Shown here: positions 7,153 through 54,459 of the stretch, piece by piece
Numbering within the stretch: the stretch's first letter is position 1
Layout: each line of letters begins with the position of its first letter
Source: an uncultured Candidatus Saccharibacteria bacterium
Lineage (GTDB): Bacteria > Patescibacteriota > Minisyncoccia > UBA6257 > JAUSGH01
Direction: 5' to 3'
DNA length: 64,000 nucleotides
NCBI GenBank assembly: GCA_964372325.1
Contig: CAYJQG010000001.1
Coordinates: 120-64,119 of the forward strand
The notes under the pieces: model-generated
What the model was told of the DNA's origin: nothing
The model's database searches: none
Seen by the model: the letters and a program-made list of their open reading frames with translations, nothing else
Made by a program: the position numbers and the translations under genes

Positions 7153-7203
7153 AGTATACACAAGAGAAGGTTTAGGGAAGGAGCAGTTTTTTGACGAGAG
7201 TAT

Positions 7204-7338
7204 AGCCACCAACGAAAAAATCCCAAACTTCAAGCATCAAATAACAAATAAATTCCAATTTTTTAAATTCGAATTTATGTTATTGAGTATTATTTGAAAT
7301 TTGGTATTTGAGATTTGGTGTTTATGTTTTTAGTGGCT
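7204..7338. mobile_element. family C MITE-like element (imperfect ~135-bp palindrome centred on AAATTCGAATTT, termini TAGCCACYAACG / CTTTAGTGGCTA)
   Basis: agccaccaacgaaaaaatcccaaacttcaagcatcaaataacaaataaattccaa ... ggtatttgagatttggtgtttatgtttttagtggct. Confidence 0.8.
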
Positions 7339-7415
7339 AATAAGAAGCGAGAAAGCTAACGAAGCTTGTGAGACTTACGCTGTCTATTGTACGGGGAAAA
7401 TACATACATATATAT

Positions 7416-10533: not shown

Positions 10534-11200
10534 AAAATTATTAGCGCGTGGCCGCCTCGGTCACGCGTATCTTTTTTGGGGTGACAGTAACGCGATTGAA
10601 AAATTTGGTGAACAAATTTTGGCGCTAACTGACCAAGGGCAAAAAATATACATCGACGGAAAAATTGTAGGAGTCGAGGGGAAAACCATCGGTATCGACG
10701 AAGTGCGGGAGATCATCCAATTTTTATATAGTAAGCCGCTTCGCGCATCGCACAAAACGGTATTAATTAATCAGGCTGATCGGCTTTCGCTTGAGGCGCA
10801 AAATGCATTATTGAAAATCTTGGAGGAGCCTCCAGGGCATGCGTTGATTATAATGAGTGTGCGAGATAAGGGTGTGCTTATCGAGGCATTACTATCGCGT
10901 ATGCAATGTATGTATATGCCATACAACGATGAAGCGCCGAGTGCGGAGTATATGAATATTGCAGCGCGTTTATTGCGCGGTGGCCCCGCCGAACGCAAAG
11001 CAGCGATCGCCAAATTAATCGAAGACGAAATTGCACTTGAATCGGTGGTGCATGCATTACTCGTCGAGTACAGAAAAGATCCGGTAAAAAATAATGCATT
11101 AATGAAAAGTATCACTATGCGATGGGCAAAAATGTCGCAATATAATACGAATAAAAAGCTGCAGCTCGAAGCGATGTTCATCGAGCCAAACAGGGGTTAA
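10496..11200 (+). CDS. holB: DNA polymerase III delta-prime subunit-like (HolB); start uncertain, overlaps the mreB 3' end
   Basis: GRLGHAYLFWGD, VREIIQFLYSKPLRASHKTVLINQADRLSLEAQNALLKILEEPPGHALIIM is the delta-prime/clamp-loader box. Stop TAA lies inside the terminus of a MITE-C copy. Confidence 0.75.
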   Translation: MFIKDSSLISDFKKLLARGRLGHAYLFWGDSNAIEKFGEQILALTDQGQKIYIDGKIVGVEGKTIGIDEVREIIQFLYSKPLRASHKTVLINQADRLSLEAQNALLKILEEPPGHALIIMSVRDKGVLIEALLSRMQCMYMPYNDEAPSAEYMNIAARLLRGGPAERKAAIAKLIEDEIALESVVHALLVEYRKDPVKNNALMKSITMRWAKMSQYNTNKKLQLEAMFIEPNRG

Positions 11201-11337
11201 CCACTAACGAAAAAATCCCAAACTCCAAGCACCAAATAACAAATAAACTCCAATTTTCGAAATTCGAATTTATACATTGAATATTATTTGGAATTTGGTA
11301 TTTGAGATTTGGTGCTTATGTCTTTAGTGGCTAGTGG
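11199..11337. mobile_element. family C MITE-like element
   Basis: taaccactaacgaaaaaatcccaaactccaagcaccaaataacaaataaactccaa ... tttagtggctag. Supplies the holB stop codon. Confidence 0.8.
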
Positions 11338-12268: not shown

Positions 12269-12399
12269 AAAAGTAGTATACAAATAAACTCTGCCGAAAC
12301 TTATATAGGTGGGACGGAAGTTTATATAAAGAATAGCAATCGTTGAGACATCGCCACGAGACATGTATTTTTGCGAACATCTATCGAGTTGCTTATAAA

Positions 12400-12545
12400 T
12401 CAACGAACGTAACGATAATTTTTTGATAATACATTCAATGGTCGGAAAATCCCGAAGGGAGGAACGGGAACCGTTGAATGTATATCAAAAAATAGAGTGG
12501 AGTGAGTATGATTTATAGCGATGAGATAGCGTTTGCTAAAATACA
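12400..12545. repeat. family G element, partial copy without intact TIRs
   Basis: Shares caatggtcggaaaatcccgaagggaggaacgggaaccgttgaatg...atcaaaaaatag...gtgagtatgatttatag with the 53526-53732 element. In the metK upstream region. Confidence 0.6.
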
Positions 12546-12624
12546 TGTCTCGGGCAACTTGCCATGCGTGAATTATTTAATTAAGATAAGAGAATTATTT
12601 CTTGCCCCAAAAACATAAAATCTT

Positions 12625-26042: not shown

Positions 26043-26729
26043 ATGGAAGATATCATTAAAGAACAATTGCGGATCAAGACAATCGATGGCGAGGATATCG
26101 CAGGTACGATTTACGAAGCGAAAAATCCTAAAGATGCAGTGCTTTTTGTGCACATGATGCCCGAGACAAAAGAGTCGTGGGATACATTTGCGAATCTCGT
26201 TGCAATAGAAGGCCACACTGGACTTGCAATTGACCTTCGTGGGCATGGGGATTCGAGTGGCGGACCAAAAGGGTACACGCACTTTACTGACGAAGAACAT
26301 CAAAAAAGTATCCTCGACCTTGATGCCGCAGTAAAATTTTTATTAAGCAGGGGCTTTACGTATCAACAAATTACATTTGTTGGGGCGTCGATCGGAGCAA
26401 ATTTAGCGTTGAAATATATGGCCGACCACGGCGATTATCCCGCAGCAGTATTACTATCGCCAGGAACGAATTACCACGGAGTGTTAAGTCGAATTTCTGC
26501 CGCCGAAATAAAACCCGGGCGTAATATATTGTTGGTAAGCGCAAAAGATGATGGTGAAAATGCGAGCGACACGGTCGCAATCGGAGAGGCATTTCTCGAA
26601 GGAGTGCAACGTGCGGTGAAGATCTATGACACCGGTGGGCATGGAACGACGCTACTTAAAACTCAGCCGCAGCTACAGGGGCTTATACAACAATTTTTAG
26701 GAAAGCTTGACAATATTTCAGTGGCTTGA
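26043..26729 (+). CDS. alpha/beta hydrolase family protein
   Basis: 228 aa. Nucleophile elbow VGASIGA (GxSxG), HGDS motif, C-terminal His. Confidence 0.7.
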   Translation: MEDIIKEQLRIKTIDGEDIAGTIYEAKNPKDAVLFVHMMPETKESWDTFANLVAIEGHTGLAIDLRGHGDSSGGPKGYTHFTDEEHQKSILDLDAAVKFLLSRGFTYQQITFVGASIGANLALKYMADHGDYPAAVLLSPGTNYHGVLSRISAAEIKPGRNILLVSAKDDGENASDTVAIGEAFLEGVQRAVKIYDTGGHGTTLLKTQPQLQGLIQQFLGKLDNISVA

Positions 26730-26730
26730 T

Positions 26731-26969
26731 AAAATAGTTAGCTTGCACCTTGAAATTGGAAATCCGCCATTCGCAGCAGAACAGAACTCCAGAAAGGAGG
26801 TTTCCGTTGTGTAGCTGCTGCGAAGCCAGTGTCTGGCAAATTGCGCTTAGTCCTCACGGCGCAAACTCTGACTGAAATCAGGGGGTGGTATGAGGGAATC
26901 CACCTTCGTGCCGGTGAGCTTGCCTATTGTAGGTAGGCTAGGAGCGAAGGCAACGGTCGCGCGTCTCGC
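26731..26969 (+). other. ~240-nt GC-rich structured leader upstream of the 26970 gene (candidate cis-regulatory RNA)
   Basis: Multiple stems (cgcagcag...ctgctgcg; gcgcttagtcctcacggcgc; cagggggtggtatgagggaatccacc). Composition unlike the genome background. No match to riboswitch classes I could recall. Confidence 0.3.
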
Positions 26970-27905
26970 GTGACCACAGAAAAGGGGGGAAAAGAAGAAA
27001 TGAAGCTGACCATCGTAAGCGCCCATAAGAATTCGTTTGGCCGTAATATGCAGCAGTTTGGAATTAGTGGAATGCCGACAATCGGCGTGCGAAGGAACGA
27101 ACAGTTCGGTGTCGTATTCGAAAACACGACTCATCAGCCGGTACAGGTGAAGATTGCAATCGATGGTACCGACATTCTGACCGGCGCCCCGGCGACAACC
27201 GCTACAAATGGCAAGATGTGGTTCGTGAAGCCGTACGAAAAGCTTGTTCTTAAGGCGTGGCCTGAGGACCAGCACGGTGGCGCGCAGTTCGTGTTCACCG
27301 ATGTTGAGAACTCAGTTGCTGCTCATACGCATGGCAATATGGCCGCGCGTGGGTACATCTCCGCTGCGGTGTTCGTCGAAGGGGCACCTCCCCCAATTTC
27401 CCCGAGTTATATGCTCGATAGCCTGACTTTTAGAGGCAATACGCGCGGAGCTTCGAAGGGGATATCGGGTGATATGATGGGCCTTCCGGGCGTTGGTGCG
27501 GGTCAGCGGGTGAACCAGCGCATTGAAGAGGTCTCTGGGCTTCGTAGCCCGAGGTTCTCGGAGATCGTCCAGGTGAAGTACTGTTGGTGGAATGATTTGA
27601 GGAGTAATCCGGAGTTCATCGCGCTCGTTTCTGGCGCGACGTCGGTTGCGACTGCCGTTGTTGGCGAACAGATTTATGCGAACGGTCATCCGACCGGGTT
27701 CCTTGCGGGTAATAATTGGGCAGACCTTGGTACGACTCCGCGTTTGAATAAGGGTGGTCTGCCGACTACGGTGGTTGAGCGGAAAGAAAACTTCAAGGAA
27801 GACGGTTCGCGACGTAACCGGAAGCATAGTCATGTGCAGACCGGTATTTCAAACGATGCGCGCTTCGAAGACACGAACGTCCGCGACCTCGTTGAGACGC
27901 TGTAA
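26970..27905 (+). CDS. hypothetical protein in a GC-rich segment; start possibly ATG 27001
   Basis: 311-aa ORF. Codon usage is GC-richer than genome neighbours. Preceded by a ~240-nt structured GC-rich leader and followed by an intrinsic terminator. Confidence 0.5.
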   Translation: MTTEKGGKEEMKLTIVSAHKNSFGRNMQQFGISGMPTIGVRRNEQFGVVFENTTHQPVQVKIAIDGTDILTGAPATTATNGKMWFVKPYEKLVLKAWPEDQHGGAQFVFTDVENSVAAHTHGNMAARGYISAAVFVEGAPPPISPSYMLDSLTFRGNTRGASKGISGDMMGLPGVGAGQRVNQRIEEVSGLRSPRFSEIVQVKYCWWNDLRSNPEFIALVSGATSVATAVVGEQIYANGHPTGFLAGNNWADLGTTPRLNKGGLPTTVVERKENFKEDGSRRNRKHSHVQTGISNDARFEDTNVRDLVETL

Positions 27906-27960: not shown

Positions 27961-28150
27961 TATAAAACAATAGACTCGGCTCTCCCGATAACATTTCGGC
28001 TCTGATGCCCATGAATTTCGGCTACGACTTCGTGAAAAAATCTCAACAGACTCTGTGAATAGCTTTCCGTTTTTTCACTTCGTCTCGCCTGCCTGCCGGT
28101 AGGCAGGCTCGAAATGAGCGCAAAAATCCCTCGAAAGCTTATCGGGAGCC
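27961..28150. mobile_element. family D MITE-like element, complete
   Basis: 19-bp TIR tagactcggctctcccgataa / ttatcgggagccgagtcta. Interior carries cctgcctgccggtaggcagg. Confidence 0.85.
28087..28106. repeat. GC palindrome copy
   Basis: cctgcctgccggtaggcagg inside a family D element. Confidence 0.75.
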
Positions 28151-28183
28151 GAGTCTAATACAGCAAGATAACGATAAATAATC

Positions 28184-35761: not shown

Positions 35762-35791
35762 TTGACAAGAAGCGAACTGGTATGCTATAAT
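35762..35791 (+). promoter_or_regulatory. consensus sigma70 promoter (TTGACA-18-TGcTATAAT)
   Basis: tTTGACAagaagcgaactggtatgcTATAATg. Drives the candidate sRNA and possibly the tRNA-Pro region. Confidence 0.6.
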
Positions 35792-35798
35792 GATTTAT

Positions 35799-35878
35799 AG
35801 GTGATGGCCACAATTATGGGTCAAAGTCGCTTGTCAATAAAAACAGTCCTTGTTTAAAGGATTGTTTTTGTTTTATGA
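35799..35878 (+). ncRNA. candidate small RNA (~80 nt): consensus sigma70 promoter upstream, intrinsic terminator at 3' end
   Basis: TTGACA (35762-35767), 18-nt spacer, TGcTATAAT (35783-35791). About 80 nt downstream is a 12-bp stem hairpin (aaaacagtcctt / aaggattgtttt) followed by a T-run. Contains only a 17-codon ORF. Confidence 0.3.
35838..35878 (+). terminator. intrinsic terminator, 3' end of candidate sRNA and rpmB region
   Basis: aaaacagtcctt-gtttaa-aggattgtttt + tgtttta. 12-bp stem with one G-U pair. Confidence 0.7.
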
Positions 35879-35969
35879 TAACCATGCGTGGATTTGGGCC
35901 TGTAGTTTATGTGGTAAAACATCGCCCTTGACAAGCGACAAAGCGGGTTCAAGCCCCGCCGGGTCCTAG

Positions 35970-36237
35970 ACCCTATCTGAAGAATATACCGAATCGCGTT
36001 GCGAGAAATTTTTAAATATCGTAAGGCGCGAGAAGCGCAGTGTGCCAATAGGCACATGAGCGACGAGCAACGAAACGATTTTTAAAAATTACCGCAACCC
36101 TTCGGGATACGGCCAATTTCTTAAATTACTGCGTCGCTCGTCCTCGAAGTATCTACTGATACGTCCTCGTTCTCGACTTCTTGTACTTTAAAAAATTGGC
36201 CAGTATCGCGATCGGTATATTCTTCAGATAGGGTCTG
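35970..36237. mobile_element. family H MITE-like element with perfect 24-bp TIRs, ending 3 bp before tRNA-Pro
   Basis: gaccctatctgaagaatataccga ... tcggtatattcttcagatagggtc. Confidence 0.8.
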
Positions 36238-36240
36238 CAT

Positions 36241-45823: not shown

Positions 45824-45960
45824 TAGCCACTAACGGAAAAATCCCAAACTTCAAGCATCAAATAACAAATAAATTCCAATTTTTGGGCATTCGAATTTAT
45901 ATATTGGATATTATTTGGGATTTGATTATTGAGATTTGGTGTTTGTGTCTTTAGTGGCTA
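45824..45960. mobile_element. family C MITE-like element
   Basis: tagccactaacggaaaaatcccaaacttcaagcatcaaataacaaataaattccaa ... tctttagtggcta. Confidence 0.8.
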
Positions 45961-45992
45961 TTAACTTATCAAATGGTATACAGTCAAAGTAT

Positions 45993-47723: not shown

Positions 47724-47882
47724 TAGTATTCGCCACTTATGATATAGCCACCAAAGATACAAGCACCAAATCTCAAATACCAAATTCCAAATAATATTTA
47801 ATAACTTAAATTCGAATTTAAAAAATTAGAATTTATTTGTTATTTGATGCTTGAAGTTTGGGATTTTTCCATTAGTGGCTAG
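47722..47882. mobile_element. family C MITE-like element, inverted relative to the 45022-45192 copy
   Basis: gtagtattcgccacttatgatatagccaccaaagatacaagcaccaaatctcaaatacc .... Begins with the dnaG stop codon TAG. Confidence 0.85.
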
Positions 47883-47911
47883 TGTCTAACCCTAATCCCT
47901 CATCAATACTT

Positions 47912-49138
47912 ATGTCATCAAAAGCAATAATAAAAAAGAAAAAGGTACAGCGCACGGGAAAACAGAAAAAAAGATTGGTGCAGGGCGCGCAGAAAGTAAA
48001 GAAAGCAGTGAGGGTGAAATTGGTAAGCAAAAAACATAAATTGAATAAGAAGGAAGCTGCACGGCAGAAGCAAAACTTGAGCCAACTCGATGAGTTAATT
48101 AGCCGTGGAAAGGGGAGGGGGTTTGTGACCGATGGAGAAGTACTCCACTATTTTCCTCGCGTGGAAAACGACATTAAGTTTCTCGAAGAGGTCTATGCGC
48201 GTCTTGAAGAAGTTGGTATGAAAGTGGTAGAAACAAGCCAACTCATCGAAACACCGAAAGAAGAGATTAGCGTAAAGGAACTTGAAGAGGCCACGCAGTT
48301 CGAAGGCGAACTCCCCGATGCCGTGCAAATGTATTTAAAAGAAATTGGTAAGACGCAACTTTTAACCGGAGAAGACGAAAAAGAATTAGCCAAACGCGTA
48401 GAATCTGGCGACGAAGAAGCGCGCAAGAAATTTATTCAAGCAAATTTACGGTTAGTGGTTTCGATTGCAAAGCGTTATGTCAATCGTTCACCAAATTTAA
48501 GCATCTTGGACCTCGTGCAGGAGGGGAATATTGGCCTCTCGAGAGCGGTCATAAAATTTGACTACCGAAGAGGTTTCAAGTTTTCGACATATGCAACATG
48601 GTGGATCCGCCAAGCAATTACCCGTGCATTAGCCGACCAGTCGCGTACCATTCGTATCCCGGTACACATGGTCGAAGTAATTTCGAAGTACACTCAGGCA
48701 AAACGACGATTGCTCCAAGAGCTTGGTCGCGAGCCATTACCCGAAGAGATCGCAATTGAGTTGAATATGCCACTCGAGAAGGTGCACCATATTCAAAAAA
48801 TATCTCAAGAAGTCATTTCACTAGAGTCGCCAGTTGGAGACGACGACGAAGACTCAACCTTGTCAGAGTTTATTCCCGACGAACGAAACCTTACACCTTC
48901 TCAAACCGCCTCTCAGGCGTTATTGGGTGACAAAATTCGAGAAATTTTAATTGATCTCACGCCTCGCGAACAAGAAATTTTAAAAATGCGTTTTGGGCTA
49001 GAAGATGGCATTACACATACCCTAGAAGAAGTGGGGCATGAATTTGGCGTGACAAGAGAGCGCATTCGACAAATCGAAGCGAAGGCATTAGGAAGGATTA
49101 AGATACACGAGAAGGCTCATATGCTCGAGGGCTACTAG
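47912..49138 (+). CDS. rpoD: RNA polymerase sigma factor RpoD (primary sigma-70)
   Basis: Regions 1.2 to 4.2 present ([52 protein letters not shown]). Start at ATG 47912; GTG 47882 lies in the MITE. Stop TAG overlaps the next MITE-C copy. Confidence 0.9.
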
Positions 49139-49265
49139 CGAAAAAATCCCAAACTCCAAGCATCAAATAACAAATAAATTCTAATTTTTTAAATTCGAAT
49201 TTATATATTGGATATTATTTGGAATTTGGTATTTGAGATTTGGTGCTTGTATCTTTGGTGGCTAT
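49133..49265. mobile_element. family C MITE-like element
   Basis: ctagcgaaaaaatcccaaactccaagcatcaaataacaaataaattctaa ... tatctttggtggctat. Overlaps the rpoD stop codon. Confidence 0.8.
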
Positions 49266-50759: not shown

Positions 50760-52496
50760 ATGGATTCGCAACAGATCCGCGAACAATTTCTCGATTTTTT
50801 TAAACGTCGCGGGCACACCATTGTGCCTTCGTCTTCGCTTGTGCCAACTGACCCGTCGGTGCTTTTAACAACCGCCGGCATGCAGCAGTTCAAAAAATAT
50901 TACACGGGAGAGTTGCACCCAGCGGCTGATTTTGGGTCGAAACGTACGGCAACAATACAAAAATGTTTTCGCACCTCCGATATTGAAGAAGTGGGGGATG
51001 CCACACACCTCACATTTTTTGAAATGTTAGGAAATTTTTCGTTTCAAGATTATATGAAGCGCGACGCTATTTCTTGGGGATACGAATTAATAACAGGGGT
51101 GTTCGGTATAGATCCGCGACGTGTGACAGTAACGGTATTTGCGGGTGATAAAGACATTCCATTCGACAAAGAGTCATACGATATTTGGAAAAATGTCGTG
51201 GGTTTAGAAGAGTCGCGTATAAGTCGACACGATCGCAAAGACAATTTTTGGGGACCCACAGGAGCTGAGGGTCCTTGTGGGCCAACAACTGAAATTTATG
51301 TCGATGGCGTTGAGGTGTGGAATATTGTGTTTAACGAGTTTTATCAACATTCAGACAAGACCTTAGAACGTTCAAAAACGCCAGGGGTTGATACGGGCAT
51401 GGGGTTCGAACGGTTGGTTGCAGTGCTTCAAGGCGTACCAACAATTTTTGAAACAGATTTTCTTCTTCCTCTTTGCCAGTTAGTGCGTGGGGTAGCGGGC
51501 GGTGCACCAGACCGCGTGGTGCGTTTGTTGGTAGACCATTTGCGCGCAAGTATATTTTTGATCGCTGATGGAGTAAGGCCAAGCAATAAAGAAGCTGGGT
51601 ATATTTTGCGGCGGTTACTCCGTAGGGCAATGGCGCACATGGTAAAGAATGACGTACACGAAGATTTTTTTAAAAGTTTCTTGGAGAAGCTGCAAGAGCT
51701 CATGGGGGGCACATACAAAGAAATTTTAGATACGGTAATTATTATTGCTGCTCTACAAGAAGAGCATGCAAAATTTGGTGCTGCGTTGGCTTCTGGACTA
51801 AAAGAGCTTGGGAAGCACAAAACACTAAGTGCAAAAGATGCGTTTGTGATTTACGAAACGTTTGGGCTCCCCTTGGAGCTCATCAAAGAATTTGGTGGAG
51901 CAGTTGCGGCAGACCTCAGTGAAAAAGATTTCAAACATGAGTTTGTGCAGCATCAAGAAATTTCGCGTAGAGGAGCCGAAAAGAAATTTGGTGGCCATGG
52001 GTTGTTGTTTGACACCGGTGAACTGAAGGCGAAGGATGCCGCAGAGCTTGAAGAAGTGACTCGGCTCCATACCGCAACGCATTTACTGCAGCAAGCGCTG
52101 CGCGATGTACTGGGGAATACCGTGTCTCAAAAAGGGTCAGACATTACCGCTGAGCGTACACGTTTTGACTTCTCGTTTAATCGCAAAGTCACACCAGAAG
52201 AAATCAGTAAAGTGGAGTCAATAGTAAATTCTCGCATTGCAGAAGACCTCCCAATGGCGTACAAAGAACTTCCAAAAGATGAAGCGGTAAAAACCGGAGC
52301 TTTGCACTTTTTCAATGTGAAATACCCCGAAAAAGTAAAAGTATATTTTGCTGGGCATACGTTAGAAACTGCATACAGTAAAGAATTTTGCGGCGGCCCG
52401 CACGTCGACCATACCGGTATAATTGGTAAGTTCAAAATAATAAAAGAAGAAGCGGTTGCTTCAGGAGTTCGAAGAATACGAGCGATTGTGTTCTGA
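50760..52496 (+). CDS. alaS: alanyl-tRNA synthetase, minimal form (aminoacylation plus editing core, no C-Ala domain)
   Basis: 578 aa. Class II motifs, editing HxxxH (HTATHLL) and CGGPHV. Ends at ...VRRIRAIVF, directly after the editing core. Confidence 0.9.
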   Translation: MDSQQIREQFLDFFKRRGHTIVPSSSLVPTDPSVLLTTAGMQQFKKYYTGELHPAADFGSKRTATIQKCFRTSDIEEVGDATHLTFFEMLGNFSFQDYMKRDAISWGYELITGVFGIDPRRVTVTVFAGDKDIPFDKESYDIWKNVVGLEESRISRHDRKDNFWGPTGAEGPCGPTTEIYVDGVEVWNIVFNEFYQHSDKTLERSKTPGVDTGMGFERLVAVLQGVPTIFETDFLLPLCQLVRGVAGGAPDRVVRLLVDHLRASIFLIADGVRPSNKEAGYILRRLLRRAMAHMVKNDVHEDFFKSFLEKLQELMGGTYKEILDTVIIIAALQEEHAKFGAALASGLKELGKHKTLSAKDAFVIYETFGLPLELIKEFGGAVAADLSEKDFKHEFVQHQEISRRGAEKKFGGHGLLFDTGELKAKDAAELEEVTRLHTATHLLQQALRDVLGNTVSQKGSDITAERTRFDFSFNRKVTPEEISKVESIVNSRIAEDLPMAYKELPKDEAVKTGALHFFNVKYPEKVKVYFAGHTLETAYSKEFCGGPHVDHTGIIGKFKIIKEEAVASGVRRIRAIVF

Positions 52497-52760
52497 GCAT
52501 ATACGGGCCGCCGCAAGGGGAAGATGTCGGTCCCTACGGCCGGGTTTACCGCCGGGTGCCGGGCGCGGGCGGTCTGCTCGGGCGGTGGCTTCGACTTCAG
52601 CCTCGGCGATACCAGGGGTGGCTACGAAGCTTTCTTCTCCTTCTGCGACGTTGAATAGTTCTTAGAAACTTAAATGCTTGAAAATCTTTGGTTTTTGACC
52701 CTTTGAGCCTTTGTTCCCAGTTAGTTGGTGGACGAGGGCTCTTTTTTATTCATGATGGTT

Positions 52761-52798
52761 TTACTAAACAAGTTGACGATCGTCAACTTGTTTAGTAA
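52761..52798. repeat. 38-nt perfect palindrome centred on ACGATCGT
   Basis: ttactaaacaagttgacgatcgtcaacttgtttagtaa, downstream of alaS. Confidence 0.85.
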
Positions 52799-52879
52799 AT
52801 GTTGCAATTTAGTTTTTGTTATGGTATGATGAGCCGCAGTGCATTGGCATGGTTTTTATTATGAGGAGTGGCTTGATGT

Positions 52880-52925
52880 CTCGGCGCTACATGCTTTGGT
52901 TTTAGTATTGGCGTGAGGGGTTACT
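52880..52925. repeat. second copy of the family I arm motif GCTTTGGTTTTAGTATTGGYGTGAGGGGTTAC
   Basis: gtctcggcgctacatgctttggttttagtattggcgtgaggggttac. Directly upstream of the consensus promoter at 52936. Confidence 0.6.
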
Positions 52926-52935
52926 TGGCCTGGAT

Positions 52936-52964
52936 TTGACAGAAAATACTAGCAATGGTATAAT
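52936..52964 (+). promoter_or_regulatory. consensus sigma70 promoter (TTGACA-17-TATAAT) for the 53018 gene
   Basis: ggatTTGACAgaaaatactagcaatggTATAATag. Confidence 0.7.
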
Positions 52965-53017
52965 AGATTGGTTGTTTGAAACTGGAAACGCCAAGTCCAA
53001 AAAAGAAGGAGGCTCGC

Positions 53018-53452
53018 ATGAACATGAAGCTTTCAGTAAACGAAGCGGTTGGGGTTTTTGGGCGAGGAGTTATGATCCCAGAAATTCCAATATCGAGCGA
53101 GGAACTGGAGAAGTTCCGTGGTACGCATCTTTTGATCTTGAAACCCTTCGTGTCAAATTATTTGATCTGGGCCTTGGTTGGACTGGATGCCCGTGAGACC
53201 ACGGCGGCATCGGCCCACAGTGGGTTACCCACAGTCAAAGACCTTTTGTATTTTGAAGAAGCAATGCGTAAGGAGCGTAACGTCAGGCCGTGGCATGGCC
53301 TGTGGCTTTTGACCAGCGAACGGGATCAATTTAATCGTCCCGTCGCCATTCAGTTTTACGATGGTGGGTGGCGCGTGACGAGCGTCGAATCGCTCGACGC
53401 GACGCGTTTGGGCGGTGCCCCGCTCGTCGCCGTCGAGATTCGCCATCTATAA
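53018..53452 (+). CDS. hypothetical small protein with consensus promoter and strong SD
   Basis: 144 aa from ATG 53018, 7 nt downstream of aaggagg. The ORF-track 52976 start is upstream of the SD. Consensus TTGACA-17-TATAAT promoter at 52936-52964. GC-richer codons. Followed by an 11-bp GC hairpin. Confidence 0.5.
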   Translation: MNMKLSVNEAVGVFGRGVMIPEIPISSEELEKFRGTHLLILKPFVSNYLIWALVGLDARETTAASAHSGLPTVKDLLYFEEAMRKERNVRPWHGLWLLTSERDQFNRPVAIQFYDGGWRVTSVESLDATRLGGAPLVAVEIRHL

Positions 53453-53473
53453 CTTTTTTCGATCAACTACTAC

Positions 53474-53499
53474 GCCCTCGGGGGAATTCCCCCGAGGGC
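53474..53499 (+). terminator. 11-bp GC hairpin (no T-run) after the 53018 gene
   Basis: gccctcggggg-aatt-cccccgagggc. Confidence 0.5.
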
Positions 53500-53525
53500 G
53501 ATTCCTATAAGCACTAGGTACATCG

Positions 53526-53732
53526 AGAGTTTTATTCCCATTTTCACGAACATCTACCGAGTTTCTTTATAAATCAATGAACGAAGGGAGAATTTTTTGA
53601 TTTATCAATGCAATGGTCGGAAAATCCCGAAGGGAGGAACGGGAACCGTTGCATTGATATCAAAAAATAGACCGTAGTGAATATGATTTATAGAAACGAG
53701 GGAGCGTTCGTGAAAATGGGAATAAAACTCTC
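53526..53732. mobile_element. family G MITE-like element with perfect 27-bp TIRs
   Basis: gagagttttattcccattttcacgaac ... gttcgtgaaaatgggaataaaactctc. Interior nested hairpin caatggtcgg...ccgttgcattg. Its end overlaps the dut stop codon. Confidence 0.85.
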
Positions 53733-54171
53733 ATTTTCCTGTCGTTCCAAACCCACCCCGACTTCGGGGTTTTAATTTTTTTACTTCACGTAAATGCATG
53801 CGCGCATAAGGCAAAATGAGCATCTGTGCAATGCGGTCGCCGCGTGAAACAGTAATTGGCATGTCGGTAAAGTTAAATACGGGGAAATGGTATTCGTCAT
53901 TGTCGCCCGAAAAATCTTCGTCGCCAATACCAATGCCATTCGGCACCATGAGCCCGCGTTTGTAGAAAGAGCTACGGGCTGCAAGGAGTACAAAATGGTT
54001 TTTCGGCGGGCTTATTGCGACACCCAATGGGATGAGTGCTGTTTGGTGGGGTGCAACGGTAACTGTGCTGCGCACATGACAGTCGAAACACACGGCACCA
54101 GTAGTTTGGTAGCGAGGGAGTGGGAGCTCGGCATCGAGGCGTTTAATTTTTACGTGCTTTAATCGGGGCAT
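53731..54171 (-). CDS. dut: dUTP diphosphatase
   Basis: 146 aa. Motifs AVCFDCH, GLMVPNGIGIGDEDFSGD, RGGFGTTG. Stop codon overlaps the end of a 27-bp-TIR MITE. Confidence 0.9.
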   Translation of the reverse strand: MPRLKHVKIKRLDAELPLPRYQTTGAVCFDCHVRSTVTVAPHQTALIPLGVAISPPKNHFVLLAARSSFYKRGLMVPNGIGIGDEDFSGDNDEYHFPVFNFTDMPITVSRGDRIAQMLILPYARMHLREVKKLKPRSRGGFGTTGK

Positions 54172-54186
54172 ATAGGAATTATATCA

Positions 54187-54371
54187 CTAGACTCGGCTCC
54201 CGATAACATTTCATCTCTTTTTTATGAATTTCGGCTACGACATCCGCGAAAAAGATTCAGTAGATACACCGTATATACTTCATCTTTTTCGTCTCGTCTC
54301 GCCTGCCTGCCGGCAGGCAGGCTCAAAATTCATAAAAAATAGCTCGAAAGCTTATCGGGAGCCGAGTCTGC
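54187..54371. mobile_element. family D MITE-like element, complete
   Basis: TIR tagactcggctcccgataa / ttatcgggagccgagtctg. Interior carries cctgcctgccggcaggcagg and gctcaaaattcataaaaaatagctcgaaagc. Confidence 0.85.
54302..54321. repeat. GC palindrome copy
   Basis: cctgcctgccggcaggcagg inside a family D element. Confidence 0.8.
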
Positions 54372-54459
54372 TAAAAAATGCTGTGGATAAGTGAATGCAT
54401 TGCTCTTAGTGTTCAAAAAAATTATAATTAAAGGAAAAGAGCATCAACAAGTATTCACA

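What the first reader, a model, noticed from the sequence alone, without database searches (positions are those of the whole stretch)
52880..53500. Small unknown gene with textbook promoter, textbook SD, foreign codon usage and GC hairpin
A perfect -35/-10 element and AAGGAGG are exceptional in this genome. The 144-aa product has no recognisable family. The expression signals are as expected for a highly expressed or recently acquired gene, such as a phage-derived or defence-related one. A family I motif lies just upstream and a family G MITE just downstream.
Basis: seen in the sequence. Interest (0 to 1): 0.5.

Follow-up and report, generated by a model that had tools for sequence, protein, structure and literature searches.

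The report
Orphan gene with textbook expression signals
A small gene found in no other sequenced organism, almost certainly real, sits behind a perfect promoter and ribosome-binding site in an uncultured Patescibacteria genome, at a spot between housekeeping genes where each relative examined carries something else; this is an ordinary accessory orphan, with no sign of phage or defence origin.

Summary
There is a 12/12 sigma-70 promoter with an extended -10 (52936-52964), AAGGAGG five bases before ATG 53018, a 144-aa ORF (53018-53452), a 28-nt GC palindrome (53473-53500), a 36-nt repeat motif upstream and a 208-nt MITE-like palindrome downstream.

The ORF behaves like a real gene. Its in-frame codon score matches host genes and lies 4.4 SD above stop-free shuffles.

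It has no homologue anywhere: Pfam, PHROGs, NCBIfam, PADLOC, PDB, 5.8 billion clustered proteins, an exhaustive HMMER scan of 1.84 billion representatives, and phage, plasmid, viral and metagenome DNA.

The genome is a Paceibacteria-type Patescibacterium. The gene lies in a housekeeping block (dnaG-rpoD-alaS-[orf144]-dut-p555-rpsA-rpsO-pnp). The alaS-dut slot differs between relatives, and none carries orf144.

Its GC3 (0.59) exceeds all 264 host windows, yet its overall codon score is within the host range.

Verdict: a monocistronic, probably strongly expressed, lineage-restricted accessory gene, plausibly acquired horizontally and built like a phage "moron" but outside any prophage. Nothing supports a phage or defence origin. 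Biochemical function remains unknown. Low-to-moderate interest.

The parts
52705..52750 (+). Intrinsic terminator of alaS (hairpin followed by a T run); it insulates orf144 from upstream transcription
   Evidence: Fold of 52700-52752: stem 52705-52741, dG -22.8 kcal/mol, followed by UUUUUU.
52760..52799 (.). 40-nt perfect AT-rich palindrome (TTTACTAAACAAGTTGACGA / TCGTCAACTTGTTTAGTAAA), single copy
   Evidence: dG -23.8 kcal/mol. Of the 18 perfect palindromes with arms of at least 10 bp in the window, 17 are intergenic, which fits a hairpin terminator or spacer role (inference).
52802..52830 (+). Weak second promoter-like site (TTGCAA-17-TATGAT with TG), 9 of 12
   Evidence: Sites of this quality occur at chance frequency: 6 found against 5.0 +/- 2.4 in shuffles.
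52892..52927 (+). 'Family I' motif: an orphaned 3' arm of a long hairpin element. Similarity stops 8 nt before the -35 hexamer.
   Evidence: 94-97% identical to 56201-56236. Weaker similarity extends back to about 52832. The full element 56062-56238 folds at -111.7 kcal/mol, z = -10.8, and is followed by T8. No 5' arm is present here.
52936..52964 (+). Consensus sigma-70 promoter with extended -10 (TTGACA, 17 nt, TGgTATAAT); predicted start of transcription near 52970-52972
   Evidence: It is one of two 12/12 sites in the window. The organism encodes a full-length RpoD with regions 1.1-4 at 47882-49138. Activity is inferred, not measured.
53006..53012 (+). Shine-Dalgarno AAGGAGG, 5 nt before the ATG
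   Evidence: The 5' UTR shows no significant structure (z = 0.70).
53018..53452 (+). orf144: monocistronic coding sequence of 144 aa, 16.2 kDa, pI 6.4, no Cys, no signal peptide, one borderline hydrophobic segment around residue 47
   Evidence: The frame is open while the other five frames carry 4-9 stops. In-frame codon score is 0.203 bits/codon (host 0.242 +/- 0.076; other frames all negative). That is 4.4 SD above 500 stop-free shuffles, and the ORF ranks with the true small genes. GC1/2/3 = 0.59/0.42/0.59. No homologue or paralogue was found.
53473..53500 (.). GC-rich perfect palindrome 21 nt after the stop codon: the probable hairpin terminator or 3'-end stabiliser of orf144, with no U-tract
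   Evidence: 12-bp stem, AAUU loop, -29.5 kcal/mol. The terminator scan does not call it because it lacks a T run.
53525..53732 (.). 'Family G' MITE-like palindromic element between the convergent genes orf144 and dut
   Evidence: 27-nt perfect terminal inverted repeats. The whole element folds into one long hairpin. Second copy at 12357-12552, 83% identical. Its right end overlaps the dut stop codon.
53731..54171 (-). dut (dUTPase): a native, syntenic neighbour, convergent with orf144, marking the far edge of the variable slot
   Evidence: Pfam dUTPase E = 3.4e-20. Best homologues are 69-75% identical; the hits that carry a name are Patescibacteria-group dUTPases. In relatives dut is encoded divergently from p400-p555. 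Codon usage is host-like.
54185..54369 (.). Another MITE-like element between dut and p555, occupying the place where relatives carry a gene of about 400 aa
   Evidence: 77% identical to 27968-28156; 24-nt terminal inverted repeats. A profile of the p400 family finds no remnant in 52400-54460.

Best explanation
orf144 is a real, monocistronic protein-coding gene. It is an accessory, lineage-restricted addition to a variable slot between the conserved housekeeping genes alaS and dut of a Paceibacteria-type Patescibacterium.

The unit is self-contained:
- The alaS terminator and a 40-nt hairpin insulate it upstream.
- A consensus extended -10 sigma-70 promoter and a full Shine-Dalgarno site should give constitutive, high expression.
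- A -29.5 kcal/mol hairpin and a 208-nt palindromic MITE separate it from the convergent dut gene.

The elevated GC3 and the Arg-over-Lys, Trp- and Leu-rich composition suggest the gene came by horizontal transfer from a somewhat GC-richer, unsampled source and is not yet ameliorated. In that sense it works like a phage 'moron', an autonomous expression cassette added between unrelated genes, but it sits in the chromosome core rather than in a prophage.

The product is predicted to be a soluble cytoplasmic protein of about 16 kDa. Its biochemical activity cannot be assigned.

Shown: the anatomy, the coding signature, the absence of homologues, the variability of the slot, and the GC3 anomaly. 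Inferred: high expression, termination at the hairpin, horizontal origin, and cytoplasmic location.
For: - Signals.
- Coding signature: in-frame score 0.203 against host 0.242 +/- 0.076, with all five other frames negative and stop-laden. The score is z = 4.41 over stop-free shuffles, only 0.12% of shuffles are stop-free, and the ORF ranks among the true small genes such as NYN, dut and rpsO.
- Insulation and termination structures.
- Housekeeping context (dnaG, rpoD, alaS, dut, rpsA, NYN, pnp).
- Slot variability: in the nearest relative found (AlaRS 70% identical) the slot holds three other genes. In others it holds a reverse transcriptase + bAvd + AdoHcyase set, a 1203-aa LTD protein, or a 235-aa protein.
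- Wider relatives have alaS followed by p400 and p555, or by p555 directly.
- No orf144 homologue in 170 loci or in any database.
- Compositional anomaly: GC3 0.59 exceeds all 264 host windows. Lys is 3.5% against 6.8% in the host, Arg 7.6% against 5.9%, Trp 2.8% against 0.9%. Presumably highly expressed native genes are not GC3-rich: rpsA 0.43, pnp 0.44, rpoD 0.44.
- Moron definition (own promoter and terminator, deviant GC, extra relative to related genomes): PMC3594210.
Against: - No donor or homologue is known, so horizontal origin rests on composition and absence alone.
- The full codon and synonymous-codon scores lie within the host range, at the 27th and 17th percentiles.
- The closest sampled relatives are distant (AlaRS 70% identical at most; p555 44%; the DUF5667 protein 25%). 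A fast-evolving native gene could therefore also look like an orphan.
- The hairpin lacks a U-tract and is not called as a terminator.
- There are no expression data.
- There is no usable structure: AF2 pLDDT is 35 and Foldseek returns only noise.
- There are no phage, integrase or mobility genes nearby to explain delivery.
Confidence: 0.6

Rival explanations
1. The gene is native and vertically inherited but evolves quickly. On this reading orf144 is an old Paceibacteria gene whose relatives are too diverged or too poorly sampled to detect, and its position reflects local rearrangement rather than import.
For: The nearest relatives are very distant: AlaRS 60-70% identical, and the syntenic DUF5667 protein only 25%. 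The codon score is within the host range. The promoter, SD and T-less hairpin terminator are of the same kinds the host uses elsewhere. The region has clearly been rearranged, with p400 missing and MITE copies at the junctions.
Against: GC3 exceeds every host window, z = 3.6. No positional counterpart exists in any of the seven distinct dut-bearing contexts. An exhaustive HMMER scan of 1.84 billion representatives found nothing, whereas the other no-Pfam gene tested (27000-27902) has 37 homologues.
Confidence: 0.25
2. The gene is phage-derived or an anti-phage defence or counter-defence gene. Examples would be a moron left by a decayed prophage, an immunity protein, or a single-gene abortive-infection factor.
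For: The architecture matches a moron: own promoter, hairpin, deviant GC3, and extra relative to relatives. In one relative the same slot holds a reverse transcriptase with bAvd, the components of a diversity-generating retroelement. PADLOC gives a weak Cas2 match, E = 0.019 over 26 residues.
Against: PHROGs gives no hit. There is no match in 50,697 phage records, in IMG/VR contigs or in plasmids. No phage, integrase, cas or partner genes are nearby, and there is no tandem or CRISPR-like array. A mini-profile of the SUKH/SMI1-KNR4 immunity family shows no similarity (hhalign probability 0.08%).
Confidence: 0.1
3. The locus is not protein-coding. On this reading the promoter drives a non-coding RNA, or the 144-codon ORF is a chance or very recently born (de novo) reading frame.
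For: There is no homologue, so purifying selection cannot be tested. AF2 gives no confident fold. Read-through transcription past the T-less hairpin would be antisense to dut.
Against: Only 0.12% of composition-matched shuffles stay open. The in-frame codon score is 4.4 SD above the stop-free shuffles and equals that of genuine host genes, while all other frames are negative. A full SD sits at optimal spacing before an ATG. Rfam gives nothing, even at E <= 10. The 5' region has no significant structure.
Confidence: 0.05

Closest known systems
Phage 'morons' (e.g. the HK97 gene 15 element; reviewed in PMC3594210)
   Same: A single gene with its own promoter and its own hairpin, GC composition different from its neighbours, and present as an obvious extra relative to related genomes. 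It is expected to be expressed independently of its surroundings.
   Different: It is not inside a phage or prophage. It lies between alaS and dut in a dnaG-rpoD-alaS...rpsA-pnp housekeeping block, with no phage genes within the window region examined. It has no similarity to any PHROG. The terminator lacks a U-tract.
Taxonomically restricted ('ORFan') accessory genes in variable chromosomal slots or hotspots
   Same: There is no detectable homologue. The location is an interval flanked by conserved core genes whose content differs between relatives, with repeat elements at the junctions.
   Different: Most annotated ORFans have weak or unremarkable signals. This one combines the only perfect promoter of a protein gene in 64 kb with a full SD, and its coding statistics are as good as those of core genes.
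SUKH / SMI1-KNR4 immunity proteins (PDB 3d5p, 2prv, 2pag)
   Same: Similar size (about 135-155 aa), a cytoplasmic protein, and a superficial resemblance of two short motifs (recalled from memory, used only as a lead).
   Different: Tested and not supported. hhalign of a three-structure profile against orf144 gives probability 0.08%. There is no Pfam hit at E <= 10 and no adjacent toxin gene.
The other strong-promoter, high-GC3, no-Pfam gene of this window (27000-27902)
   Same: A near-consensus extended -10 promoter (26707, 11 of 12 with TG), AAGGAGG downstream of it, GC3 of 0.60, and no Pfam family.
   Different: It has no sequence similarity to orf144. It has 37 uncharacterised homologues in metagenomes, a leader of about 265 nt, and is twice as long.

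Membership tests
Phage moron | Lies within a phage or prophage genome | tested here: not met
   The neighbours are dnaG, rpoD, alaS, dut, rpsA, rpsO, NYN and pnp. There are no PHROG or phage-record matches.
Phage moron | Present as extra DNA relative to related genomes | tested here: met
   Absent from 170 related loci, and the slot content differs between relatives.
Phage moron | GC content differs from that of the surrounding genes | tested here: met
   GC3 0.59 against a host mean of 0.433, above all 264 host windows. Gene GC is 0.53 against roughly 0.45.
Phage moron | Own promoter and own terminator | tested here: inconclusive
   The promoter is a 12/12 consensus with TG. The hairpin of -29.5 kcal/mol is present but has no U-tract. 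The activity of either cannot be tested here.
Known anti-phage defence systems (PADLOC-DB 2.0) | Significant match to a defence-protein model, with the system's partner genes adjacent | tested here: not met
   The only match is Cas2, E = 0.019 over residues 107-132. No tandem or CRISPR-like array was found. The gene is monocistronic and sits between alaS and dut.
SUKH / SMI1-KNR4 immunity proteins | Profile similarity to the SUKH fold family | tested here: not met
   hhalign probability 0.08% against a profile of 3d5p, 2prv and 2pag fragments. The profile is small (Neff 1.85), so sensitivity is limited. Pfam gives no hit.
Sigma-70 extended -10 promoter | TTGACA and TATAAT hexamers, 17 +/- 1 nt spacer, TG one base upstream of the -10 | tested here: met
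   A housekeeping RpoD with regions 1.1-4 is encoded in the window.
Sigma-70 extended -10 promoter | Directs transcription initiation in vivo | not testable with these tools
   No transcriptome data are available for this uncultured organism.
Rho-independent (intrinsic) terminator | GC-rich hairpin followed directly by a U-tract | tested here: not met
   The hairpin is present, but the tail is ATTCCTATAA. Several other gene-end palindromes in the window also lack T runs, so hairpin-only termination is an inference.
MITE (the downstream 53525-53732 element) | Short non-coding element with terminal inverted repeats, present in several copies | tested here: met
   208 nt, 27-nt perfect terminal inverted repeats, and a second copy at 12357-12552 (83%). 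Only two copies are visible in 64 kb. Target-site duplications and a cognate transposase were not examined.

The most novel reading that the evidence does not exclude
orf144 is the founding, so far singleton, member of a new protein family that is among the most strongly expressed proteins of an episymbiotic Patescibacterium. It would have been imported into a hypervariable slot beside alaS and would act in conflict or host interaction, for example as a new single-gene immunity, anti-defence or host-manipulation factor. Alternatively, its strong convergent transcription could serve to throttle the neighbouring dut gene.
Probability: 0.12. Interest if true: 0.55.

Novelty: new member of a known kind. 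Interest (0 to 1): 0.25.

Why it matters
Patescibacteria (CPR) genomes are small and rich in unannotated genes, and it is hard to tell which hypothetical ORFs are real and important. This locus is a clean example of an orphan that is real by coding statistics and that carries the strongest expression signals available in its genome, so its product may be abundant in the cell.

The work also shows that the alaS-dut interval is a variable slot in this lineage, holding AstE/AspA-like genes, a reverse transcriptase with bAvd, or giant surface-type proteins in different relatives. That makes the slot a reasonable place to look for accessory functions.

Without homologues, a structure or expression data, the gene itself adds little beyond a candidate for follow-up.

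Tried and rejected
1. Homology searches all returned nothing. These covered Pfam, PHROGs, NCBIfam and PDB sequences, the 5.8-billion-cluster search, which found only the protein itself, viral contigs, metagenome contigs, phages and plasmids, all ORFs of 170 related loci, and paralogues in the window.
2. The exhaustive search of 1.84 billion representatives gave two 'hits', P0003 and P0004. Both are translations of tandem-repeat DNA whose E-values are inflated by 10-13 repeated short stretches. I rejected them as spurious.
3. AF2 without an alignment gave pLDDT 35.2 and pTM 0.27. Foldseek against the PDB on that model gave only noise, with best E = 1.3 and TM <= 0.22. No alignment can be built, so I did not use the second structure job.
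4. I tested whether orf144 or its surroundings are a remnant of the roughly 400-aa gene that relatives carry before p555. A single-sequence tblastn gave a weak hit at 54200-54268 (E = 0.095). That stretch lies inside a MITE copy, and a 41-sequence profile finds nothing in 52400-54460. Rejected.
5. I tested whether orf144 derives from the genes that occupy the slot in relatives. It does not: only dut matches.
6. The PADLOC Cas2 match is short and borderline, with no tandem or CRISPR-like array or cas context. Rejected.
7. The SUKH/SMI1-KNR4 idea, drawn from memory, was tested with a small profile built from PDB hits and gave no similarity.
8. I looked for an RNA element or riboswitch in 52400-54450. 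Rfam gave only chance-level matches to the palindromes. The 5' UTR is unstructured. The fold of 52490-52760, which spans the GC-rich 52500-52650 stretch, has z of only -1.85.
9. I tried to identify the source record. Exact look-ups of orf144 and alaS are not on record. A 100% identical 1460-nt contig of another part of the window exists in run ERR4904390, but it says nothing about orf144.
10. A literature search for MITEs in Patescibacteria returned nothing relevant.

Full report
**Observation**

- The promoter is TTGACA (52936-52941), a 17-nt spacer ending in TGg, and TATAAT (52959-52964).
- AAGGAGG (53006-53012) lies five bases before ATG 53018.
- The open frame runs to the stop at 53450-53452 and encodes 144 aa.
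- Twenty-one bases further on is a perfect 28-nt palindrome, CGCCCTCGGGGGAA/TTCCCCCGAGGGCG (53473-53500). It forms a 12-bp stem at -29.5 kcal/mol.

A scan of both strands of the whole window finds only two 12/12 promoters. This is one. The other is at 35762, upstream of tRNA-Ser. One further site at 26707 has a single mismatch.

The full AAGGAGG in front of a start codon is rare but not unique. It also precedes the genes at 42956 and at 58619 (pnp). The combination of both signals is unique in the window.

The 'family G MITE' is real. It spans 53525-53732, has 27-nt perfect terminal inverted repeats and folds into one long hairpin. A second copy lies at 12357-12552.

The 'family I motif' (52892-52927) is the 3' arm of a 177-nt hairpin element whose complete copy lies behind p555 at 56062-56238. 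That copy folds at -111.7 kcal/mol (z = -10.8) and is followed by T8. At the orf144 locus the 5' arm is missing, and similarity ends 8 nt before the -35 hexamer.

**Is it a gene?**

Yes, with high probability.
- I trained a codon model on 36 long genes of the window. The annotated frame scores 0.203 bits per codon. Host 144-codon windows score 0.242 +/- 0.076, and the best wrong frames of host genes never exceed -0.076.
- The other five frames of the region are negative and contain 4-9 stops each.
- Only 0.12% of mononucleotide shuffles of the ORF remain open. Those that do score -0.105 +/- 0.070 (maximum 0.095), which places the real sequence 4.4 SD above them.
- Among the ORFs of at least 100 codons that were not in the training set, orf144 ranks with the genuine small genes (NYN, dut, rpsO) and above the highest-scoring of the remaining, probably non-coding, ORFs.
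- GC by codon position (0.59/0.42/0.59) shows the GC1 > GC2 pattern of the host genes.

**'Foreign codon usage'**

This claim holds only partly. GC3 (0.59) is higher than in any of 264 host windows (mean 0.433, sd 0.044, maximum 0.542; z = 3.6). A-ending codons are depleted. The protein is poor in Lys and Ile and rich in Arg, Leu and Trp relative to the host.

Native genes that are expected to be highly expressed (rpsA, pnp, rpoD) have GC3 of 0.43-0.44, so expression-linked bias does not explain the anomaly. However, the full codon score and the purely synonymous score fall at the 27th and 17th host percentiles. The gene is atypical rather than alien.

**What the protein is**

The protein matches no family.
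- Pfam, PHROGs and NCBIfam give no hit, even at E <= 10.
- PADLOC gives one 26-residue Cas2 match at E = 0.019, and the window has no tandem or CRISPR-like array.
- PDB sequences give no hit.
- The word-indexed search of 5.8 billion clusters returns only the protein itself, a singleton from one 64,448-nt NCBI contig.
- The exhaustive HMMER scan of 1.84 billion representatives adds two artefacts, translations of tandem repeats whose scores sum over 10-13 short stretches.
- Translated searches of IMG/VR contigs, JGI metagenome contigs, phage records and plasmids find nothing.
- There is no paralogue in the window.
- AlphaFold2 without an alignment gives pLDDT 35, and Foldseek on that model gives noise.

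The sequence has no Cys and no signal peptide. It has one borderline hydrophobic segment (Kyte-Doolittle 1.71 around residue 47), a pI of 6.4 and a mass of 16.2 kDa. I infer a soluble cytoplasmic protein.

A resemblance to SUKH/SMI1-KNR4 immunity proteins that I recalled from memory was tested with a small profile built from PDB hits. It failed, with hhalign probability 0.08%.

**Organism and context**

AlaRS, encoded just upstream, finds only Patescibacteria (Paceibacteria, Wolfebacteria, Giovannonibacteria and similar) at 60% identity or less in GTDB species representatives and 63% or less in JGI metagenomes.

Nearby genes are dnaG, rpoD, a DUF5667 protein and alaS upstream. Downstream are dut (minus strand), a conserved 555-aa protein, rpsA, rpsO, a NYN-domain protein and pnp. 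This is a core housekeeping block on the leading strand, with GC skew positive throughout. It is not a prophage.

**Synteny**

Across 160 alaS-centred loci the order dnaG-rpoD-(DUF5667)-alaS ... p555 is conserved. The alaS-p555 interval ranges from 7 to about 3,400 nt. It usually holds a gene of about 400 aa immediately before p555, and it never holds orf144.

dut turned out to be the better guide. It is a typical Patescibacteria dUTPase, with best hits 69-75% identical. Its carriers include the closest relative found, with AlaRS 70% identical.

In these genomes dut sits as in the window, encoded divergently from p400-p555. What lies between dut and alaS differs:
- two AstE/AspA-like genes plus a 302-aa gene (L163; L168 and L169 begin with the same kind of genes, but those contigs end before alaS);
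- a reverse transcriptase with bAvd plus AdoHcyase (L165);
- a 1203-aa LTD-domain protein (L161);
- a 235-aa protein (L170).

None of these proteins, nor any other ORF of those loci, resembles orf144 or any frame of 52497-54390 apart from dut. The alaS-dut interval is therefore a variable accessory slot, and orf144 is this genome's occupant.

The window also lacks the p400 gene. A 185-nt MITE copy lies in its place (54185-54369), and a 41-sequence profile finds no remnant.

**Anatomy of the unit**

- Transcription from alaS should stop at a canonical terminator: stem 52705-41, -22.8 kcal/mol, then U6.
- A 40-nt perfect palindrome follows at 52760-99.
- The consensus promoter gives a predicted 5' end near 52971 and a leader of about 46 nt with no significant structure (z = 0.70).
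- After the stop codon come the GC hairpin and the 208-nt palindromic element, then the 3' end of the convergent dut gene.
- Perfect palindromes with arms of at least 10 bp are almost exclusively intergenic in this window (17 of 18). Several sit just past gene ends without a T run. I infer that the hairpin acts as a terminator or 3' stabiliser, although it fails the intrinsic-terminator definition.

**Interpretation**

The best-supported reading is a real, monocistronic, probably strongly and constitutively expressed accessory gene, restricted to this lineage and placed in a variable slot. It is plausibly of horizontal origin and incompletely ameliorated.

Its architecture is that of a phage moron: own promoter, own hairpin, deviant GC, and extra relative to relatives (PMC3594210). 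It fails the defining requirement of lying in a phage genome, so it works like a moron without being one.

The main rival is a native, fast-evolving gene whose relatives are simply unsampled. The nearest genomes are distant enough that one syntenic protein is only 25% identical. The GC3 outlier and the absence of any positional counterpart argue against this reading.

A phage or defence origin has no positive evidence. A non-coding or chance ORF is made unlikely by the coding statistics.

**Assessment**

The function remains unassigned, and no homologue, structure or expression datum is available. A strongly signalled orphan in a CPR genome is not surprising to a specialist. It is a sensible follow-up candidate but not a discovery in itself.

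Noticed in passing
window 26707-27902: A second near-consensus extended -10 promoter (TTGACA-17-TGaTAAAAT, 11 of 12) lies at 26707, with AAGGAGG at 26794 and a leader of about 265 nt. It precedes a 301-aa gene (27000-27902) with no Pfam family and GC3 of 0.60, the highest in the window. That gene has 37 uncharacterised homologues in metagenomes, and a 100% identical 1460-nt contig exists in run ERR4904390.
   Followed up: partly
window 52500-52650: A stretch of about 150 nt with 70% GC follows the alaS stop codon directly, in a genome of about 45% GC. It matches nothing in the window, in related loci, or in phage and plasmid records. A fold of the enclosing 52490-52760 is not significant (z = -1.85). 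Its origin is unexplained.
   Followed up: partly
window-wide, e.g. 7203-7339, 11198-11333, 45029-45165, 45824-45961, 47745-47881, 49131-49264: The intergenic regions are packed with several families of palindromic MITE-like repeats. One is a 137-nt family with six copies, four of which lie beside dnaG, rpoD and the DUF5667 gene. A CCTGCCTGCC/GGCAGGCAGG core palindrome recurs at least five times. This is striking for a small CPR genome, and a literature search found nothing on MITEs in Patescibacteria.
   Followed up: partly
window 54172-54390: The gene of about 400 aa that precedes p555 in most Paceibacteria relatives, and that is encoded divergently from dut in the closest ones, is absent from the whole window. 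A 185-nt MITE copy (54185-54369, 77% identical to 27968-28156) occupies the gap.
   Followed up: yes
L165 9180-10521 (Ga0209515_10001124); also L161 6513-10124 and L163 6604-9432: The alaS-dut slot of relatives holds very different cargo: a reverse transcriptase with bAvd (the components of a diversity-generating retroelement), a 1203-aa LTD-domain protein, or AstE/AspA-like genes. This suggests a lineage-wide hotspot for accessory genes.
   Followed up: partly
window 56062-56238: A 177-nt near-perfect hairpin (-111.7 kcal/mol, z = -10.8) followed by T8 lies directly after p555. It may be a very long terminator or a palindromic mobile element. Only its 3' arm recurs, upstream of orf144.
   Followed up: partly
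window 35762-36360: The only other perfect promoter of the window precedes tRNA-Ser by about 100 nt. tRNA-Ser and tRNA-Pro are separated by a 269-nt imperfect palindrome (35968-36236). tRNA-Pro is followed by a hairpin with a 22-bp stem (36309-36356).
   Followed up: no
window 57381-57499 and 57757-57871: rpsO (57501-57740, 71% identical to the S15 gene of L161) is bracketed on both sides by copies of a repeat family.
   Followed up: no
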